Below, in pieces: positions 6,886-26,416 of a DNA stretch of 33,338 nt. Source of the DNA: a virus; the UHGV virus genome UHGV-0373465; one strand, 5' to 3'. The translations under genes were made by a program, and so were the position numbers. Below the pieces are notes generated by a model. It was not told the DNA's origin. It saw nothing but the letters and a program-made list of their open reading frames with translations, and searched no databases. The first letter of the stretch is position 1; each line of letters opens with the position of its first letter.

Positions 6886-7824
6886 ATGCCAACTGTAGTT
6901 TCACTTTTTTCTGGATGTGGTGGTTCTGATGCGGGAGTTTTGAACGCAGGTTTCAATGTGCTTATGGCAAATGATATTTTGCCTTACGCAAGGGACGTTT
7001 ACTTAGAAAACCATCCTGAAACTGACTACATTTTGGGCGATATCTCAGGGCTCCAGTCGTTCCCTTCTGCTGAGTTGCTCATCGGATGCTATCCTTGCCA
7101 AGGATTTAGTCAAGGTGGGGCAAGGAAGGCAGATAGAAAGATTAATACACTATATTTAGAGTTTGCCCGTGCTTTGAGTAAAATTAAGCCAAAAGCATTC
7201 ATTGTAGAGAATGTCTCTGGTATGGTAAGGCGTAACTTTGAGCATTTATTAAAGGATCAATTCAAAGTTTTCGAAGAAGCAGGTTATACAGTAAGCTCGC
7301 AAATTCTGAATGCGTCCCATTATGGGGTATCCCAAGATAGGAAGCGAATCTTTATCGTAGGAATACGAAAGGACTACGGTATTACATACAAATTTCCAAA
7401 ACCAACACATGGTGATGGTTTGACACCATATTCCACAATTCGTGATGCTATTGGGCATATGCCTGTTTGGCCTGTTGGCGAGTTTTATGACGCCGATTTT
7501 CATTGGTATTATCTATCGCGAAACCGTAGGCAAGATTGGGATCAGATATCTAAAACAATTGTTGCAAATCCTAGACATATGCCTCTACATCCAATAAGTC
7601 CAACATTAGAAAAATTGGGACCTGATAAGTGGCAATTTACTTCGGATGCACCAGCTCGTAGGTTTAGCTATCGAGAGGCTGCTATTTTACAAGGTTTTGG
7701 GGATTTAATTTTCCCAGAAACTGAACGGGCTTCTATTAATATGAAATATACTGTGGTAGGTAATGCAGTACCGCCTCCATTGTTTGAGGCGGTTGCTAGA
7801 AACCTTCCAGATTTATGGGATTAA
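6886..7824 (+). CDS. DNA (cytosine-5)-methyltransferase, compact (312 aa)
   Basis: C5-MTase motifs in canonical order: FSGCGG (motif I, AdoMet binding), GCYPCQGFSQGG (motif IV, catalytic PCQ), FIVENVSGM (motif VI, ENV), QDRKRIFIVG (motif VIII), VVGNAVPPPL (motif X). AT-rich codon usage unlike the phage backbone. Confidence 0.85.
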   Translation: MPTVVSLFSGCGGSDAGVLNAGFNVLMANDILPYARDVYLENHPETDYILGDISGLQSFPSAELLIGCYPCQGFSQGGARKADRKINTLYLEFARALSKIKPKAFIVENVSGMVRRNFEHLLKDQFKVFEEAGYTVSSQILNASHYGVSQDRKRIFIVGIRKDYGITYKFPKPTHGDGLTPYSTIRDAIGHMPVWPVGEFYDADFHWYYLSRNRRQDWDQISKTIVANPRHMPLHPISPTLEKLGPDKWQFTSDAPARRFSYREAAILQGFGDLIFPETERASINMKYTVVGNAVPPPLFEAVARNLPDLWD

Positions 7825-8858
7825 GCAGCGATCGCGCTGGAAGGATCAAGGATGATATCTAGATAGCTAATATTTTGACTGTGATCAATATTATCAGATG
7901 CTCTGGTTAAATTGATTAATCTTAGGCGATCAACAAAAATAGCATCGCCTAACTTATTTTTATGCGCCCACTCACCATCTATCCATCGTAGATCTTGAGG
8001 TAAGAAATAATAAGTTGCCCATCGGTGAGCTACGGGGAATTTACTGTAGAGCATCGCAGGTGAGGCCTCAAGCTGCTTCGCTTCCCACTCTTCTTGAGAA
8101 CAGCCACACTGAACAAAAGAAATAGGGATGGCATCTCGTTGATCTCCCATTGGATGCCAGGCAATTATGTCAAGGCCTCCGTCACCACTATTTCCTCGAC
8201 TGAAATCTCGTTCTTTGAAGTTCGCTGTGCAACGGATATCGGAAGCAATACTCTTAAATTTATTATATAGAGTTCCAGTGTAAGGGGCCGCTTGACCACC
8301 AGAAGCCCAGCATGCTTTTATTATGCTACCGCTAGGCATTAGGCTTTCAAAAATAGGTAAACTAATTAGTTCAAAACTGCGCGTTATCTCTCTTCTGCTC
8401 ATTATGTTGACATATTTTATGTTAGCACAGATTAGTAAAGCTAAATATAGTCTTTCTAAATGTTCCAGTGGCTTTTCTGATATATCACGTAACTCTACAG
8501 TATCGTTGTCTTCTGATAAAGTAAAAGGGTAACTATCCCCAAATAAATCAATGCGTTGTCGTATGAAGCCTATCGCATAGCTCCACTTTCTGTCAGTATA
8601 TGCTCGACTAACACTTCGTTTTGTTCTCTTGCGTACAGGCGTATCATTTTCATCATCAACATCATAAACGCCCTCTTCTTCTGCTTCATCTGTTTCAGCT
8701 AGTACTGCTTCGGGTTGAGCTTGCAGTGTGCTATATAGGTCTCCTCGACTGAATGACCTGTCGATATTAGTTAAGGCCAATATCTCAATATAATCAGCCC
8801 ATAAATAAGGCTCATTAGAAGGCATTGAATCAAGATTTGTAATCATAATCTCAATCAT
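7821..8858 (-). CDS. Hypothetical protein, distal gene of minus-strand operon; candidate effector/nuclease (unproven)
   Basis: ORF 7821-8930; start likely at ATG 8858 or 8846, just after a GGGAGG and 3-8 nt from the upstream gene's stop. Its stop codon overlaps the MTase stop by 2 nt (convergent). Acidic stretch AETDEAEEEGVYDVDDENDT; no confidently recognised domain. Confidence 0.6.
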   Translation of the reverse strand: MIEIMITNLDSMPSNEPYLWADYIEILALTNIDRSFSRGDLYSTLQAQPEAVLAETDEAEEEGVYDVDDENDTPVRKRTKRSVSRAYTDRKWSYAIGFIRQRIDLFGDSYPFTLSEDNDTVELRDISEKPLEHLERLYLALLICANIKYVNIMSRREITRSFELISLPIFESLMPSGSIIKACWASGGQAAPYTGTLYNKFKSIASDIRCTANFKERDFSRGNSGDGGLDIIAWHPMGDQRDAIPISFVQCGCSQEEWEAKQLEASPAMLYSKFPVAHRWATYYFLPQDLRWIDGEWAHKNKLGDAIFVDRLRLINLTRASDNIDHSQNISYLDIILDPSSAIAA

Positions 8859-9924
8859 CCTCCCTTTTGCTTCTGATCTGATTTCTAATATTTTTTGACA
8901 TCTCAAAAATTTCAGATGCAGCCTCTTCATGCTCTAATGTTAATTCTTTAGCTTTAAGTAGCATATCCCAAACTACTCTTAATTTAACACTAGCTGCGTT
9001 TAGTGCTTTATCTAATGCTTCTCTTTCTCCGCTGGTATATAGATATGCTTCATCCAAGTTTGAACTTTTCATGAGAATTTCAATTGCTTCGGGTTTCTCA
9101 ACCACTGCTGCAATATCTTTTATTCTTCGAGACTCACCGATGATGGTTCTACCTTGTTGGTCAGGCACAAAAAACCAAGAGAATAAACGCTTAAGGTTTT
9201 CTTCATTTAAATTTGGGTCTAAAAAATCCTTTTTATCCTGTAGACCTAACCAGTTTGTGATTTTTGAATATCCCAAAGCTGTGGTTATATATGAAAATTC
9301 CACGTCAGAAGCCTTCATGGGTAAATTAAAAAACTCATGGTCATGCGCGACTTCATATAAGTTCAGTGCAGTGAGAAGTGTTGCAACATAATGTGGTTTA
9401 CTCCCAATCTCACGAGCCAGATTTTTTAATACTATCTCTTTAGGCTCATGTGAATAAAAAGTATCACATAACTCTTTAAGGTATTTGGCTTTAGATAATG
9501 AGTCCCATTCTTTGACCCCAGTTATATGACGATAACCGATATATCTCAGTACATCCTCTCGGTTTTCATAAATGATGCAGGGAAGCTTCTTAGGTTTATT
9601 GGTAGTATCATCAATGATTTCTTGCACACCTTTAAGTTTTCTTTTTGGAGGAAGCAGATCTCCATTGAGCAACTTTACAGCAGCTAAGCGTCTGTTTCCC
9701 TCAACCACGATGTAGTTTCCATTGCTTTTTACTGCCAATAAAGGTTCTCCAGGAAAGTAACCTTGCTGACCGATTGATAGCATTAGATCGTGGACACTTT
9801 CGTCATCTAACATTTCCTCAATGACTGTTGCAGCGTTACTGGCATCATTGAGACGAAAGAAACGTGGGTTTTTAGGGTCAAAATCAAGCTTATTTGTCTC
9901 AATTTCTACGATTTTGTTATCCAT
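8851..9924 (-). CDS. ParB/Srx-like N-terminal domain protein (DUF262/DndB-like superfamily candidate)
   Basis: ORF 8851-10056; start preferred at ATG 9924 (GAGG Shine-Dalgarno 5 nt upstream; alternatives 9981 and 10056). N-terminal region has the ParB-type signature YIVVEGNRRLAAVKLL about 75 residues in; the C-terminal two-thirds are helical and unassigned. Confidence 0.6.
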   Translation of the reverse strand: MDNKIVEIETNKLDFDPKNPRFFRLNDASNAATVIEEMLDDESVHDLMLSIGQQGYFPGEPLLAVKSNGNYIVVEGNRRLAAVKLLNGDLLPPKRKLKGVQEIIDDTTNKPKKLPCIIYENREDVLRYIGYRHITGVKEWDSLSKAKYLKELCDTFYSHEPKEIVLKNLAREIGSKPHYVATLLTALNLYEVAHDHEFFNLPMKASDVEFSYITTALGYSKITNWLGLQDKKDFLDPNLNEENLKRLFSWFFVPDQQGRTIIGESRRIKDIAAVVEKPEAIEILMKSSNLDEAYLYTSGEREALDKALNAASVKLRVVWDMLLKAKELTLEHEEAASEIFEMSKNIRNQIRSKREDD

Positions 9925-10151
9925 CTTAACCTCATGGGATGATGTAAATATCTTTTGGGGGATGCTTGATAAAACATCCATATTTGATCGTTTGCAGCGC
10001 ATTTGATACATCGAAGTGTACAAAAATGCTGGGCATAACTCTGCATTAAAATGCATTCACATTCAAAGAACTATTTTCTCGTTGGACATTTAGCCTAAGA
10101 GAGTTTGGACGGCTTTTGGAATTGCATCAAAACCGACCCATGAAGCGGGCG

Positions 10152-10170
10152 GGCGAGGCGGGGAAAGCAC
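10152..10170. other. cos: cos cohesive-end site (P2-type 19-nt GGCGAGGCGGGGAAAGCAC)
   Basis: Exact 19-mer that I recall as the P2 cohesive end, about 170 bp beyond the 3' end of portal gene Q, the expected position. Confidence 0.6.
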
Positions 10171-10308
10171 TGCGCGCTGGCGGTGGTGCTGATTTTATTT
10201 TTTCAGCGTCTGAGCGCGTCGTGATGGCGTTTAGTCGGCCTGCCGGGGCGTTGGTGTGTCTGCGGGGTGTTTTGTACAGTGGCGAACGTGTGAGGGCGTG
10301 ATGACGGG

Positions 10309-18531: not shown

Positions 18532-18961
18532 TGCCGTCACGGTGCTGAAAACCAGTCCAGAGATGCTGCGGATATTCGTGGATAACGGGAGTATTGCCTC
18601 CACACTGGCGACGTCGTTGTCATTCGAAAAGCGTTACACGCTCAATGTGATTGTGACCGACTTTACCGGTGATTTTGACCTGCTCATCGTGCCGGTGCTG
18701 GCATGGCTGCGGGAAAATCAGCCCGACATCATGACCACCGACGAAGGCCAGAAAAAGGGCTTCACGTTTTATGCAGACATCAACAATGACAGCAGCTTTG
18801 ATATCAGTATCAGCCTGATGCTGACCGAGCGCACGCTGGTCAGTGAGGTGGACGGCGCACTGCATGTGAAGAATATCCCGGAACCCCCGCCGCCGGAGCC
18901 GGTCACCCGCCCGATGGAGCTTTATATCAATGGCGAACTGGTGAGCAAGTGGGATGAATGA
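18494..18961 (+). CDS. R: Tail completion protein gpR
   Basis: 155 aa, equal to recalled P2 gpR; gene order. Confidence 0.8.
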   Translation: MLKPDSLRRALTDAVTVLKTSPEMLRIFVDNGSIASTLATSLSFEKRYTLNVIVTDFTGDFDLLIVPVLAWLRENQPDIMTTDEGQKKGFTFYADINNDSSFDISISLMLTERTLVSEVDGALHVKNIPEPPPPEPVTRPMELYINGELVSKWDE

Positions 18962-19406
18962 GTTTAAGCGTTTTGAAGACCGGCTGACCGGACTGATTGA
19001 GTCGCTGTCACCGTCAGGGCGTCGGCGGCTGAGTGCAGAGCTGGCGAAGCGTCTGCGGCAGAGTCAGCAGCGTCGGGTGATGGCACAGAAAGCCCCGGAC
19101 GGCACACCCTACGCGCCACGCCAGCAGCAGAGCGCCAGAAAAAAGACCGGTCGTGTTAAGCGAAAAATGTTTGCGAAACTTATCACCAGTCGTTTTTTGC
19201 ATATCCGCGCCAGCCCGGAACAGGCATCAATGGAATTTTACGGCGGGAAGTCGCCGAAAATCGCCAGTGTGCATCAGTTCGGTCTGTCGGAAGAAACCCG
19301 GAAAGACGGTAAGAAAATTGATTATCCGGCGCGTCCTCTGCTCGGCTTTACCGGTGAGGATGTGCAGATGATTGAAGAGATTATCCTGACTCACCTTGAG
19401 CGTTAG
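18954..19406 (+). CDS. S: Tail completion protein gpS
   Basis: 150 aa, equal to recalled P2 gpS; overlaps R by 8 nt. Confidence 0.8.
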   Translation: MNEFKRFEDRLTGLIESLSPSGRRRLSAELAKRLRQSQQRRVMAQKAPDGTPYAPRQQQSARKKTGRVKRKMFAKLITSRFLHIRASPEQASMEFYGGKSPKIASVHQFGLSEETRKDGKKIDYPARPLLGFTGEDVQMIEEIILTHLER

Positions 19407-19436
19407 TTTTATCCAGGCAGAGGCTGATGCGCAATT

Positions 19437-19471
19437 AAACATTGAGCGGCCATGCTGGTCGCTCAATGTTT
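19437..19471. terminator. Stem-loop between convergent S and the antisense moron gene (possible bidirectional terminator)
   Basis: Inverted repeat aaacattgagcg (19437-19448) / cgctcaatgttt (19460-19471) with an 11-nt loop; no strong T-run, so terminator function is tentative. Confidence 0.35.
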
Positions 19472-19477
19472 AGAGGT

Positions 19478-20263
19478 TTATGAGTGATTTTTATTTGATG
19501 CTTTGTATTCTAAAACCTTCTTATTGGCGTAAAAGAATTTTGTATATGACAGGAATATAACCAGACCTGAAGTGAAATAGACGAGGGATAGTATTAATAA
19601 TGCTTTTTTGTGACTGTTATTATCTTTAATCTCCTGGCTTAACCATTCGGAGTCCTCCTCGTTTAGCTGTAAGAGCTTATTGCAGGCGATCTCAGGAAGT
19701 GTGTCTTTTATAAATACGTTTTGCAGTCTCTTGCAATCGGCAAGGCTATAAGTTTTATTAAATTCAACTGCTTTATTTTTGAAGGATAAAAGAACTTTGT
19801 CACTATAAACATAGTACATCATGTTTTTATATGGTATGCCTATGGCATCCCTTACTATAACGGATTGTTCGTTGTGTATATAACATGCGAAGAGAATATA
19901 AATAATGCTGGACAGAATTACAATTATTGTTTTAATTATGTGTGGTGGTTTTGTTATGTCACCCCAGAAGCGAGTAAGAAAAAAATACGATGTTTTTAGT
20001 TTTCCATCAATCAGCCCCTGCTGTATCATTCTCACATCTTCGATGCCTGATACATTGATTCCGTTAATTATTTTAAATAGTTGAATGTCGCGCCATTTTT
20101 TGTCGAGCATTTTTAACTTTCTGTCTGAATACTCAAAATTGAAATAATGTGCAATAAACCTCATAAGATTACTTTTACCAAAGGTAATAAATGTTAATGC
20201 TATTAATAAAAATAGATACAAAGAGATAAACCACCACGCATTAGTCACATTATCACTGAACAT
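19478..20263 (-). CDS. Hypothetical three-TM membrane protein (moron at the P2 orf30 position)
   Basis: 261 aa, very AT-rich, antisense to the flanking late genes; predicted transmembrane helices at the N-terminus (WWFISLYLFLLIALTFITF), middle (IIKTIIVILSSIIYILFACYI) and C-terminus (ALLILSLVYFTSGLVIFL). Confidence 0.65.
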   Translation of the reverse strand: MFSDNVTNAWWFISLYLFLLIALTFITFGKSNLMRFIAHYFNFEYSDRKLKMLDKKWRDIQLFKIINGINVSGIEDVRMIQQGLIDGKLKTSYFFLTRFWGDITKPPHIIKTIIVILSSIIYILFACYIHNEQSVIVRDAIGIPYKNMMYYVYSDKVLLSFKNKAVEFNKTYSLADCKRLQNVFIKDTLPEIACNKLLQLNEEDSEWLSQEIKDNNSHKKALLILSLVYFTSGLVIFLSYTKFFYANKKVLEYKASNKNHS

Positions 20264-20346
20264 TACGCTCTCCTCGAATGTTGTATGGTCGTTCTACAAA
20301 TGAATCCAGATAGCATAACTTTTATATATTGTGCAATCTCACACGC

Positions 20347-20982
20347 ATGAACACTCTCGCAAATATTCAGGAACTCGCGCGCGCACTGCGCAACATGATT
20401 CGTACCGGCCTTGTCGTCGAAACCAACCTTAAAGCCGGTCGCTGCCGTGTGCAGACCGGTGGCATGTGCACTGACTGGCTTCAGTGGCTGACCCATCGTG
20501 CCGGACGTTCGCGCACATGGTGGGCACCTTCCGTGGGGGAACAGGTGCTGATTCTGGCTGTGGGCGGTGAACTCGACACGGCGTTCGTTCTGCCGGGGAT
20601 TTATTCCGGCGATAACCCCGCGCCGTCTGCGTCGGCGGATGCCCTGCATATCCGTTTCCCTGACGGGGCGGTGATTGAGTATGAACCCGAAACCAGTGCA
20701 CTCACGGCAAGCGGAATTAAAACGGCCAGCGTGACGGCTTCTGATTCTGTTACTGCCACGGTGCCGGTGGTCATGGTGAAAGCATCAACCCGCGTCACCC
20801 TGGACACCCCGGAGGTGGTCTGCACCAACAGGCTGATTACCGGCACGCTGGAAGTGCAGAAGGGCGGGACGATGCGCGGCAACATTGAACACACCGGCGG
20901 TGAACTCTCATCAAACGGTAAGGTACTGCATACCCATAAACACCCCGGCGACAGCGGCGGCACAACCGGGAGCCCTCTATGA
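20347..20982 (+). CDS. V: Baseplate spike/assembly protein gpV
   Basis: ORF 20329-20982; ATG 20347 gives 211 aa, equal to recalled P2 gpV. Confidence 0.8.
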   Translation: MNTLANIQELARALRNMIRTGLVVETNLKAGRCRVQTGGMCTDWLQWLTHRAGRSRTWWAPSVGEQVLILAVGGELDTAFVLPGIYSGDNPAPSASADALHIRFPDGAVIEYEPETSALTASGIKTASVTASDSVTATVPVVMVKASTRVTLDTPEVVCTNRLITGTLEVQKGGTMRGNIEHTGGELSSNGKVLHTHKHPGDSGGTTGSPL

Positions 20983-25516: not shown

Positions 25517-26416
25517 ATGAGTGGTATTCGTATAACTCAGGCTATTGATAACAATCAGATTTTAGTAAATGTAAATACTTTTAATTATAGTGTTAATCCC
25601 TATCCACTCAAATGTCCTGACCCAAATTGCTCTGCTCATTTGGTGTATGTCAAAAGCCATATTCGTCGGAGTTTTAATAAAACCTTGCATATCCCCGCCT
25701 TCTTTAGACTGGAAAAAAATTTCACGCATGACAAATTATGCCAGTATGGAACTTCAGGATTGAATACAATTTATGCAAGTGATTCCAGTCATGATATCAG
25801 CCGTGCGCTTGCCACAGGTAATAATATATTCCGTATACATATACTCGATGAAGATGATATCTCTAAATTAAGCAGAAAAGCTGCAGCTATGCAGGCAAAT
25901 CCACCTTCTGATACTACAGACCGCGTTTATGTCAAGAGAGGTCGGAAAGCCCCTTATGTGAAGAACATGGATAGCTTACGGGAGATCTATGAATATGGAA
26001 AAGCTCACCCCAACAAGAGAAACAGCATAAAAATTGTTACTGGAACAAGTACTGTAACGTGGTCTGATTTTTTCTATGAAACAACGCAGTTAGAACGATT
26101 GTCAACTTACCTCCAGAAAGTAAAAATAGCTCAGGTTGCTGTAATTATGAAAGTGCATGTGGCGAGAATCCCTATGGCGAAATTTAATTATCGACACTTC
26201 ATTGAAGGTTCGCCAATGAGGATAAAAGGGGGCTTTAATATATATCCTACGATTCAATTAGGAAATGTTACTCCAAAATTATTTCCGTTGAGTAGCATTG
26301 TCATGGTACTCGGTAAATTTACTATTCCAACAAATAGAAAAATGATAATGGATCCAATATTTGAGCGTGAAGTCAGAACCATAGTTTCTAGTGAAGAGCA
26401 AGTGCTAATTCTTTGA
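25517..26416 (+). CDS. Hypothetical protein at the P2 Z/fun slot (possible Z/fun-like superinfection-exclusion gene)
   Basis: 299 aa, strongly AT-rich, own RBS (GGAGGAG before ATG 25517), flanked by about 215 bp and 320 bp non-coding spacers between G and FI; no recognisable catalytic motif. Confidence 0.6.
   Translation: MSGIRITQAIDNNQILVNVNTFNYSVNPYPLKCPDPNCSAHLVYVKSHIRRSFNKTLHIPAFFRLEKNFTHDKLCQYGTSGLNTIYASDSSHDISRALATGNNIFRIHILDEDDISKLSRKAAAMQANPPSDTTDRVYVKRGRKAPYVKNMDSLREIYEYGKAHPNKRNSIKIVTGTSTVTWSDFFYETTQLERLSTYLQKVKIAQVAVIMKVHVARIPMAKFNYRHFIEGSPMRIKGGFNIYPTIQLGNVTPKLFPLSSIVMVLGKFTIPTNRKMIMDPIFEREVRTIVSSEEQVLIL

What the first reader, a model, noticed from the sequence alone, without database searches (positions are those of the whole stretch)
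19407..20328. Antisense AT-rich membrane-protein moron between S and V (orf30 position)
Seen in sequence: a 261-aa ORF on the opposite strand to all surrounding late genes, very AT-rich, with three predicted transmembrane helices and lysine-rich loops, bracketed by a stem-loop at 19437-19471. Established knowledge: P2 carries an antisense orf30 at this junction, and morons at such sites often encode superinfection-exclusion or abortive-infection membrane proteins. Inference: a candidate lysogenic-conversion membrane protein.
Basis: partly seen in the sequence, partly recalled or inferred. Interest (0 to 1): 0.45.

Follow-up and report, generated by a model that had tools for sequence, protein, structure and literature searches.

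The report
P2 orf30 membrane-protein cassette
This is the long-known but still unexplained orf30 gene of phage P2: a dispensable, AT-rich, backwards-facing gene for a three-helix inner-membrane protein, sitting in a swap-in/swap-out slot between tail genes, and most likely a prophage accessory protein that acts at the cell envelope against other phages.

Summary
ORF 19478-20263 (minus strand, 261 aa, 32% GC in ~58% GC flanks) has three hydrophobic helices, 10% lysine and a strong hairpin at its 3' end.

It is the orthologue of P2 orf30 itself (89% aa identity to AAD03281, "nonessential"; PHROG 2407). The hairpin is P2's annotated O-operon terminator. The right end of the island carries P2's annotated pV activator site.

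What the analysis adds:
- **Cassette:** the whole S-V intergenic region is exchangeable. Among 89 P2-like loci it is an empty 66-bp spacer in 45, P2-type orf30 in 32, and very divergent orf30 homologues or unrelated antisense AT-rich cargo in the rest. One such cargo is a RelA_SpoT/PDC-S33 defence-candidate protein.
- **Family:** Orf30 belongs to a small family (44 representatives among 1.84 billion proteins) that is remotely related to Pfam DUF6216.
- **Shared architecture:** acidic N tail, basic loop 1, ~85-aa loop 2 with exactly two conserved cysteines, basic C tail.
- **Selection:** the loops are under purifying selection (dN/dS about 0.25).
- **Expression of a relative:** a preprint reports the DUF6216 gene of BL21's P2-like prophage as H-NS-bound and derepressed in an hns/stpA double mutant. 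I show this gene sits antisense in the S-V slot.

No homology to any characterised protein was found. Function is inferred only; an envelope-level phage-exclusion factor is my best guess.

The parts
19407..20346 (.). Exchangeable AT-rich cassette: the whole S-V intergenic region (940 bp, 34% GC)
   Evidence: The GC drop is confined to this span. In relatives whose S and V are 95-100% identical right up to the stop and start codons, this span is instead 66 bp, or 890-1305 bp of other cargo.
19435..19473 (.). Stem-loop (18-bp stem, 3-nt loop) between the convergent S and orf30 stops; P2's annotated putative rho-independent terminator of the O operon
   Evidence: Fold of 19400-19485: -38.1 kcal/mol, z -6.0 on the plus strand; -22.7 kcal/mol, z -3.7 on the minus strand. 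It corresponds to P2 9397-9433 'terminator'. The strict terminator scan did not call it because there is no clean T-run.
19478..20263 (-). orf30 orthologue: 261-aa predicted inner-membrane protein with three TM helices (about 9-28, 108-129, 221-240)
   Evidence: ORF list. 89% aa identity to P2 Orf30. PHROG 2407 at E 3e-145. Hydropathy. AF2 model with pLDDT 84.6 and pTM 0.74. dN/dS 0.44 overall and 0.24-0.27 in the loops.
20270..20275 (-). Shine-Dalgarno GAGGAG, 6 nt upstream of the orf30 ATG
   Evidence: Read directly from the sequence.
20307..20336 (-). Candidate orf30 promoter (TTGCAC, 18 nt, TG-c-TATCTG); weak and inferred only; overlaps the divergent pV promoter
   Evidence: Read by eye. 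The consensus scan found no sigma-70-like site upstream of the ORF, so this is a hypothesis and not a finding.
20278..20305 (+). Late-activator (Ogr) binding site of the pV promoter, transferred from the P2 annotation
   Evidence: P2 misc_feature 10239-10266 'activator binding site; activation of pV promoter', mapped with the +10039 offset. The sequence differs from P2 at only 2 positions within the mapped 28-bp site.

Best explanation
Shown: the feature is the P2 orf30 cassette. It is a 940-bp AT-rich module that fills the whole space between tail-completion gene S and baseplate gene V of a P2-like (Peduovirus) prophage. It contains the hairpin that P2's record annotates as the putative O-operon terminator, one antisense gene, and the activator site P2's record annotates for the V operon. 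The gene encodes a 261-aa protein of a small family related to Pfam DUF6216. Predicted topology: acidic N-tail outside, TM1, ~80-aa basic helical loop in the cytoplasm, TM2, ~90-aa alpha/beta domain with two conserved cysteines in the periplasm (probably disulfide-bonded), TM3, basic C-tail in the cytoplasm. The conserved residues are structural (Gly, Cys, Ile), with no catalytic-looking set. Inferred: it is expressed from its own promoter in the lysogen, when the late operons are silent, and is probably damped by H-NS like other AT-rich prophage cargo. It works non-enzymatically at the inner membrane as a phage-exclusion factor. Most likely it interferes with genome delivery by incoming heterologous phages across the inner membrane or periplasm, the same logic as P22 SieA or e14 Kunado but with no homology to either.
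For: Identity: 94% nt and 89% aa to P2 orf30, same position and strand; PHROG 2407. Real gene: dN/dS 0.24-0.27 in both loops across 25 alleles; strong SD; family of 44 representatives, most full-length ones about 250-270 aa. Accessory cassette: 45 of 89 loci have an empty 66-bp spacer with S and V 95-100% identical up to their ends. About 27% of E. coli P2-type S loci carry P2-type orf30 (482 vs 1803 places). Same slot, same strand, about 20%-identical homologues: P0042, P0026, P0032, P0021+P0046 in tandem, and BL21 DUF6216. Link to DUF6216: 10 of 28 members hit PF19723 (best E 8.7e-7); hhalign 74% probability, E 2.9e-5. Topology: loop 1 net +5.6/+7.1, C-tail basic, loop 2 neutral with exactly 2 Cys in 23/24 and 13/13 members. 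Defence-type neighbourhood: other occupants of the slot include a RelA_SpoT / PADLOC PDC-S33 protein. P2 tail-region hotspots are reported to hold defence systems (PMC13586616). H-NS ChIP peak and derepression of the BL21 DUF6216 gene (preprint). Precedents for single-gene multi-TM prophage Sie proteins with under 30%-identical types: P22 SieA (PMC10883804) and Kunado/YmfE.
Against: There is no functional datum for Orf30 or any family member. No hit to any PADLOC model. No homology to SieA or YmfE. No informative structural neighbour. No convincing sigma-70 promoter upstream. Some family members lie outside recognisable phage contexts, so the function need not be phage-directed. From memory, not checked here: classical work on P2 'prophage substitution' implies that superinfecting P2 DNA enters P2 lysogens, so self-exclusion is unlikely. 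The three known P2 exclusion phenotypes are already assigned to old, tin and fun.
Confidence: 0.4

Rival explanations
1. Abortive-infection or envelope-breach sensor-effector. The protein oligomerises through its long stalk-plus-TM3 helix into a gated pore. It opens (depolarising the cell) when its periplasmic or cytoplasmic domain senses an infecting phage, killing the cell before progeny are made.
Confidence: 0.2
2. A host-fitness or lysogenic-conversion factor unrelated to phages. Examples: an envelope-stress, colonisation or surface-modifying membrane protein that benefits the lysogen.
For: Family members occur in chromosomal, non-phage contexts: L101 between yegQ-like and yegS-like genes, L005-L011 next to GNAT or DsbA-family genes. 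The gene is present in 8.6% of complete E. coli genomes, many of them clinical isolates. About a quarter of the P2 main-hotspot cargo is reported as non-defence (PMC9122126).
Against: There are no catalytic-type conserved residues. Extreme divergence of alleles at one locus and tandem stacking of two alleles are more typical of conflict genes. The chromosomal copy is in a region where E. coli K-12 carries a P2 remnant (from memory).
Confidence: 0.2
3. A lytic-cycle helper of P2 itself, for example in lysis timing, tail or baseplate assembly at the membrane, or protection of the infected cell.
For: It lies inside the late gene cluster next to lysis and tail genes, and it is a membrane protein.
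Against: It is antisense to both late operons. It has no late-activator site positioned to drive it: the Ogr site centre is only about 27 bp upstream of the ATG. It is annotated nonessential in P2. It is absent from half of near-identical relatives.
Confidence: 0.07
4. A decaying or selfish passenger with no current function.
For: Function unknown for 30 years, nonessential, frequently absent.
Against: The reading frame is intact in 32 of 32 sampled loci (25 distinct alleles), with dN/dS 0.24-0.27 in both loops. Architecture and the Cys pair are conserved down to about 20% identity.
Confidence: 0.03

Closest known systems
Bacteriophage P2 Orf30 (AAD03281.1; PHROG 2407)
   Same: Same gene: 89% aa and 94% nt identity, 261 aa, same antisense position between S and V, same terminator hairpin and pV activator site.
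   Different: 28 substitutions, concentrated in the first ~60 residues (TM1 and the start of loop 1). The rest of this phage has a Wphi-type early region.
Pfam DUF6216 (PF19723), e.g. BL21(DE3) ECD_RS04470
   Same: Same slot and strand in P2-like prophages. About 265 aa, three TM helices, a periplasmic-type loop with exactly two conserved Cys, basic C-tail. Remote homology signal.
   Different: The window protein itself does not reach the Pfam threshold. Loop 1 is half as long in the DUF6216 clade, and the NGINV motif is absent there. The function of DUF6216 is also unknown.
P22 SieA superinfection-exclusion protein
   Same: Single prophage gene, antisense next to structural/ejection genes, predicted three-TM inner-membrane protein, several types under 30% identical at one locus (PMC10883804).
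   Different: No sequence relationship (hhalign probability 0.3%). SieA is about 100 aa shorter and lacks the large loops. Its FxRYPxEAxxFNK motif is absent here. No exclusion phenotype is known for Orf30.
e14 YmfE (Kunado)
   Same: AT-rich, H-NS-silenced, single-gene prophage membrane protein proposed to block phage DNA entry (preprint 10.64898/2026.09.05.749240).
   Different: No homology (hhalign probability 0.1%). Different prophage and locus.
CorA/Mrs2/ZntB divalent-cation channels
   Different: 6% identity and marginal Z. The domain would be on the opposite side of the membrane. The GIN of the NGINV motif is in loop 1, not at a TM1-TM2 turn. Three TM helices rather than two C-terminal ones.

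Membership tests
P2 Orf30 / PHROG 2407 | Full-length sequence similarity to P2 Orf30 | tested here: met
   BLASTP 89% identity over 261/261 aa, E 5e-176. PHROG 2407 E 3e-145, 1-261 of 261.
P2 Orf30 / PHROG 2407 | Antisense position between tail-completion gene S and baseplate gene V of a P2-like phage | tested here: met
Pfam DUF6216 (PF19723) | Score at or above the gathering threshold (27.3 bits) | tested here: not met
   The window protein has no DUF6216 hit. 10 of 28 family members hit PF19723 at E up to 1 (best E 8.7e-7); of the nine re-scanned individually, none reached the threshold. The BL21 slot protein passes with 44.5 bits.
Pfam DUF6216 (PF19723) | Remote homology at profile level and shared architecture | tested here: inconclusive
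   hhalign A2 vs A3: probability 74%, E 2.9e-5 over 115 columns. The A2 HMM hits 5 of 16 DUF6216 members at 16-27 bits; the reverse search finds nothing. Three TM helices and two loop-2 Cys are shared.
P22 SieA-type superinfection exclusion | Sequence homology or the conserved cytoplasmic motif FxRYPxEAxxFNK | tested here: not met
   hhalign probability 0.3%. The motif is absent from all 44 sequences.
P22 SieA-type superinfection exclusion | [quoted passage not shown] | not testable with these tools
   Only a predicted three-TM topology is available. This needs fractionation, K+ efflux or DNA-entry assays.
Known anti-phage defence systems (PADLOC-DB v2) | Match to any defence protein model | tested here: not met
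   0 families at E up to 1.
CorA/Mrs2/ZntB channels | GMN-type signature at the periplasmic end of the pore helix; two C-terminal TM helices; cytoplasmic alpha/beta domain | tested here: not met
Intrinsic (rho-independent) terminator | GC-rich hairpin followed by a U-run | tested here: inconclusive
   The hairpin is strong, but the downstream tract is only U-rich on the plus strand (GGUUUAUGAGUGAUUUUUAUUU) and absent on the minus strand. The strict scan made no call. P2 annotates it as putative.
Prophage moron / accessory cassette | Dispensable, compositionally foreign, independently exchangeable between otherwise near-identical phages | tested here: met
   32% vs 58% GC. Empty-site and alternative-cargo variants exist with S and V 95-100% identical. 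P2 annotation 'nonessential'.

The most novel reading that the evidence does not exclude
Orf30 and DUF6216 together form a previously unrecognised superfamily of prophage inner-membrane proteins. They are the default occupant of a fourth, largely ignored accessory hotspot (S-V) of P2-like phages. They act as a new class of envelope-level anti-phage factor (superinfection exclusion or breach-sensing abortive infection). Allele hyper-divergence and tandem stacking reflect an arms race with incoming phages' genome-delivery machinery, and H-NS keeps them quiet under laboratory conditions, which would explain why 30 years of P2 genetics saw no phenotype.
Probability: 0.35. Interest if true: 0.6.

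Novelty: already known. Interest (0 to 1): 0.35.

Why it matters
P2 is a founding model temperate phage, and orf30 is one of its few genes still without a function. P2-type orf30 alone is in about 9% of complete E. coli genomes, and related proteins fill the same slot in other P2-like prophages, including the one in BL21. If the family turns out to be an envelope-level exclusion system, it would add a new single-gene defence family and a further hotspot to the P2/P4 defence map. It would also give a concrete case of H-NS masking prophage immunity. If it is not anti-phage, it is still a widespread prophage-borne membrane protein of pathogenic E. coli that deserves a phenotype.

Tried and rejected
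- **Profile libraries:** Pfam, NCBIfam and PADLOC scans of the protein gave nothing usable. The only hits were DUF6535 at 18 bits and a tick-protein model at 15 bits, both below cut-off and confined to TM segments.
- **PDB sequence search** with the family profile returned only a chance NDH subunit hit, E 0.039.
- **BFVD Foldseek:** nothing at E up to 0.001. The afdb50 library was unavailable.
- **Homology to characterised exclusion proteins:** P22 SieA and e14 YmfE/Kunado were both negative.
- **R18C slot ORF** (the different ORF that phage R18C carries at this junction, PMC6823313): it is on the sense strand, is cysteine/histidine-rich, and is not a family member.
- **Tool limits:** The search for related loci with the 28-sequence alignment failed because no conserved 7-10-column stretch exists. 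The word-indexed protein search with the profile recovered only one distant member.
- **Consensus promoter/terminator scan:** no sigma-70 site upstream of the ORF and no strict terminator. The promoter I list is therefore only a by-eye candidate.
- **Literature searches** found no functional study of orf30 or DUF6216.

Full report
**1. What is in the sequence**

The window is a P2-like (Peduovirus) genome in prophage order. Its left 10 kb matches the Wphi-type early region, and its late region matches P2.

At the finding's coordinates there is one long ORF, 19478..20263 on the minus strand, 261 aa.
- It is flanked by plus-strand late genes: S (18954-19406) and V.
- GC falls from 56-61% in the flanks to 32-37% across 19400-20400. 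The ORF is 32.4% GC and the intergenic island 19407-20346 is 34%.
- Hydropathy gives three clear TM-length peaks (about 9-28, 108-129, 221-240), and lysine is 10% of residues.
- A GAGGAG Shine-Dalgarno sits 6 nt upstream of the ATG.
- An 18-bp hairpin at 19435-19473 lies between the convergent S and orf30 stop codons. An 86-nt fragment containing it folds far better than shuffles (z = -6.0 on the plus strand).

The only caveats are that the hairpin is at one end only and that the island runs to 20346.

**2. Identity**

Megablast of 19380-20340 finds 21 phage records, all P2 relatives. P2 itself (AF063097) matches at 94.4%.

The P2 record annotates exactly these elements in this order:
- gpS;
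- 'putative rho-independent terminator for O operon' (9397-9433);
- orf30 on the complementary strand (9439-10224, 'nonessential');
- 'activator binding site; activation of pV promoter' (10239-10266);
- gpV.

With the constant offset of +10039 these map to window 19436-19472, 19478-20263 and 20278-20305.

The protein is 89% identical to P2 Orf30 over all 261 residues. Most substitutions lie in the first ~60 residues. It matches PHROG 2407 ('unknown function') end to end.

The gene is therefore not merely 'at the orf30 position'; it is orf30. The papers that mention it list its function as unknown and note that the orf30 site is one of three P2 regions where foreign genes are commonly found (PMC3091744; PMC6823313). 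Recent hotspot surveys concentrate on the old/tin and Z/fun loci and mention defence cargo 'within the tail genes' only in passing (PMC9122126, PMC13586616, bioRxiv 2024.10.15.618418).

**3. It is a real, selected gene in a swap-in/swap-out cassette**

I fetched 83 loci through a near-identical S protein. The S-V spacer takes the following forms:

| Spacer length | Loci | Content |
|---|---|---|
| 66 bp (one of 61 bp) | 45 (+1) | empty |
| 940 bp (one of 918 bp) | 31 (+1) | P2-type orf30 |
| 890 bp | 3 | orf30-family member, about 20% identical |
| 944 bp | 1 | orf30-family member, about 20% identical |
| 1040 bp | 2 | other cargo |
| 1256 bp | 4 | other cargo |
| 1305 bp | 1 | other cargo |

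S and V stay 95-100% identical right up to their stop and start codons, whatever lies between them. The exchangeable unit is therefore the entire intergenic region.

All non-empty versions in this sample are about 34-36% GC and carry their main ORF antisense. The other cargoes are:
- a 366-aa RelA_SpoT-domain protein that matches the PADLOC candidate PDC-S33;
- a 357-aa protein with two C-terminal TM helices;
- a 268-aa soluble protein.

Phage R18C has an unrelated sense-strand ORF in the slot.

In complete E. coli genomes the P2-type S gene occurs at 1803 places and P2-type orf30 at 482, about 27%. All orf30 copies are chromosomal and all are annotated 'hypothetical protein'.

Across 25 distinct orf30 alleles, dN/dS behaves as follows:
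- 0.44 overall;
- 0.27 in loop 1 and 0.24 in loop 2;
- about 1.2 in the N-terminus/TM1, where both dN and dS are raised.

Nucleotide diversity peaks at 20094-20263, at 0.11-0.125 against 0.02-0.05 elsewhere. This points to recombination of a divergent 5' segment rather than proven positive selection.

**4. The family**

The word-indexed search of 5.8 billion proteins found only five clusters. The exhaustive profile search of 1.84 billion representatives found 44, and the full-length ones are mostly about 250-270 aa.

An alignment of 28 full-length members (17-39% identical to the window protein outside the P2 clade) keeps the three TM helices and several motifs:
- R-x-GG-x-SF after TM1;
- D-x-QLF[RK]-x-x-NG[IV]NV and G-x-L-x-x-S-x-F in loop 1;
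- FFG-x-IG-x-x-K before TM2;
- D-C and A-C-x-Y-L in loop 2;
- N-x-K and K in the tail.

The invariant residues are Gly, Cys and Ile. Nothing looks like a catalytic set.

Genomic look-ups place four distant members in the same slot:
- P0042, P0026 and P0032 lie antisense between S and V of other P2-like prophages.
- P0021 lies next to V in a prophage remnant. It is followed by a second, divergent family member (P0046) in tandem.

Other members lie in non-phage or uninformative contexts:
- P0030 sits between yegQ-like and yegS-like genes of a non-E. coli enterobacterium.
- P0016 is next to a GNAT gene.
- P0017 is next to a DsbA-family gene.
- P0005 is at a contig end.

tblastn of P0026 against phage genomes independently recovers P2 orf30 at 24-25% identity over 91% of its length, E 1e-7.

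**5. Link to DUF6216 and to an expression datum**

Scanning each of the 28 members against Pfam, 10 hit DUF6216 (PF19723), with a best E of 8.7e-7. The window protein itself does not hit it.

BL21(DE3)'s defective P2-like prophage carries a 'DUF6216 family protein' (ECD_RS04470) antisense between its S and V genes. This protein passes the Pfam threshold with 44.5 bits against 27.3.

The evidence for a relationship between the two groups is:
- A 16-sequence alignment of the BL21 clade compared with the Orf30 alignment gives hhalign probability 74%, E 2.9e-5, over the periplasmic domain, TM3 and the tail.
- The Orf30 HMM hits 5 of 16 DUF6216 members at 16-27 bits. The reverse search finds nothing.
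- Both groups have the same charge pattern and exactly two cysteines in loop 2, in 23/24 and 13/13 members.

I regard a superfamily relationship as likely but not proven.

[quoted passage not shown] That is the only expression evidence for any relative. Its transfer to orf30 rests on the shared AT-richness.

**6. Structure and topology**

With 28 sequences AlphaFold gives pLDDT 84.6 and pTM 0.74. The model contains:
- a long TM1 helix;
- a three-helix bundle for loop 1;
- TM2;
- a four-stranded sheet plus two short helices that carry C177 and C194;
- one continuous helix 202-260 running through TM3 into a basic tail.

Charge counts across the family are: N-tail acidic, loop 1 net +5.6, loop 2 neutral, C-tail +2.2. 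These place the N-terminus and loop 2 outside and loop 1 and the C-terminus inside. The conserved Cys pair in the outside loop fits a periplasmic disulfide. This topology is predicted, not shown.

Fold searches were uninformative:
- BFVD gave nothing significant.
- The PDB sequence search gave nothing.

The 'GIN' inside NGINV resembles CorA's GMN only superficially. It lies in loop 1, 40 residues from either TM helix, and is absent from the DUF6216 clade.

**7. Mechanism, with what is shown and what is inferred**

Shown:
- a dispensable, compositionally foreign, independently exchangeable cassette;
- an intact gene with a strong ribosome-binding site, under purifying selection in both loops;
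- a predicted three-TM protein with sizeable domains on both sides of the membrane;
- a locus that also hosts defence-type cargo;
- extreme allele divergence and tandem stacking at one locus.

Inferred:
- The gene is transcribed in the lysogen from a weak promoter that overlaps the divergent pV promoter. The candidate is TTGCAC-18-TGcTATCTG at 20336-20307, which the consensus scan did not detect.
- It is damped by H-NS.
- The protein acts non-enzymatically at the inner membrane against incoming phages.

I favour exclusion of genome entry (SieA- or Kunado-like logic) at about 0.4. An abortive pore or sensor comes next at about 0.2, and a non-phage fitness role at about 0.2.

Against self-exclusion: classical P2 'prophage substitution' experiments imply that P2 DNA enters P2 lysogens. 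This is my recollection and was not checked here.

**8. Comparison with known systems and novelty**

The closest known entity is P2 Orf30 itself, and membership is met. DUF6216 is a probable distant relative, also uncharacterised. P22 SieA and e14 YmfE/Kunado are functional analogies only, with homology tested and rejected. No PADLOC model matches.

As an object the finding is already known: it has been annotated in P2 since the 1990s and sits at a documented variable site.

What the analysis adds:
- the family and its probable DUF6216 link;
- the definition of the cassette boundaries and the empty site;
- the cargo spectrum of the slot;
- the selection profile;
- the conserved topology and Cys pair;
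- the connection to the H-NS data for BL21.

**9. Verdict**

Interest is moderate to low (0.35): a known gene of unknown function in a model phage, now with a sharper and readily testable hypothesis.

Noticed in passing
window 6886-10056: The AT-rich TO-region island (35-43% GC) holds three ORFs. One is a C-5 cytosine DNA methyltransferase at 6886-7824 (+) (PF00145; DruM/MTase_II models). The second is a 369-aa ORF at 7821-8930 (-) with no hits. The third is a 401-aa ORF at 8851-10056 (-) matching PADLOC PD-Lambda-5_A and PDC-M38A. This may be a PD-Lambda-5-like two-gene defence system (I recall PD-Lambda-5 as a two-gene system) beside an orphan methylase.
   Followed up: partly
window 25517-26416: A 299-aa plus-strand ORF lies in a 37-41% GC island at the Z/fun position, between the tail-fibre assembly gene and the sheath gene. 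It has no Pfam or PADLOC match. This is another uncharacterised hotspot cargo.
   Followed up: partly
L031 and 44 other loci (66-bp S-V spacer): The 'empty-site' version of the slot reads TTGTGCCATTCCCGACACCTCATCGTCACATTGCCGCCGGTATGACCCGGCGGCATCCTTCCCGTT. Its left end (TTGTGCCATT...) is retained in the 1040- and 1305-bp cargo types. Its right end (GGCGGCATCCTTCCC...) is retained in the 890- and 944-bp orf30-family types. P2-type orf30 has replaced all of it, including the pV promoter region.
   Followed up: partly
L015 (Escherichia sp. MOD1-EC7003), S-V slot: An antisense 366-aa RelA_SpoT-domain protein (PF04607 E 1.8e-21; PADLOC PDC-S33 E 3e-16) occupies the slot. Its architecture is reminiscent of CapRel-type fused toxin-antitoxin defence proteins.
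   Followed up: partly
L044, L050, L063, L067 and L051, L061, S-V slot: Two further antisense AT-rich cargoes have no Pfam or PADLOC hit: a 357-aa protein with two C-terminal TM helices and a 268-aa soluble protein.
   Followed up: partly
L099 6001-7658: Two divergent Orf30-family genes (P0021 and P0046) lie in tandem, same orientation, next to V in a P2-like prophage remnant.
   Followed up: partly
L101 6001-6765: Family member P0030 is a stand-alone chromosomal gene between yegQ-like (Peptidase_U32) and yegS-like genes of a non-E. coli enterobacterium, seen on many contigs. In E. coli K-12 this interval holds cyaR and a P2 remnant (ogrK/yegZ); that is from memory. It may be a domesticated remnant.
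   Followed up: partly
L009-L011: Family member P0017 (metagenomic contigs) is divergently adjacent to a DsbA/thioredoxin-family gene. This is suggestive given the conserved periplasmic Cys pair, but it may be chance.
   Followed up: no
window ~20930 onward (V/W junction): Among loci that share near-identical S, orf30 and V, pairwise nucleotide distance jumps from about 0.02-0.05 to about 0.19-0.22 from the 3' end of V into W. This marks a mosaic recombination boundary in the baseplate genes.
   Followed up: no
window 19478-19600 (3' end of orf30: TM3 and C-tail): Synonymous divergence here is about five times lower (dS 0.029) than in the rest of the gene (0.14-0.17). This could reflect a recent recombination tract shared with the S side, or a nucleotide-level constraint near the terminator.
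   Followed up: no
L103 (phage R18C) 581-1321: R18C's slot ORF is on the sense strand and is Cys/His-rich (C..C...REHIIPQW...CRVCN), resembling an HNH-type nuclease motif. This was judged by eye only and not tested.
   Followed up: no
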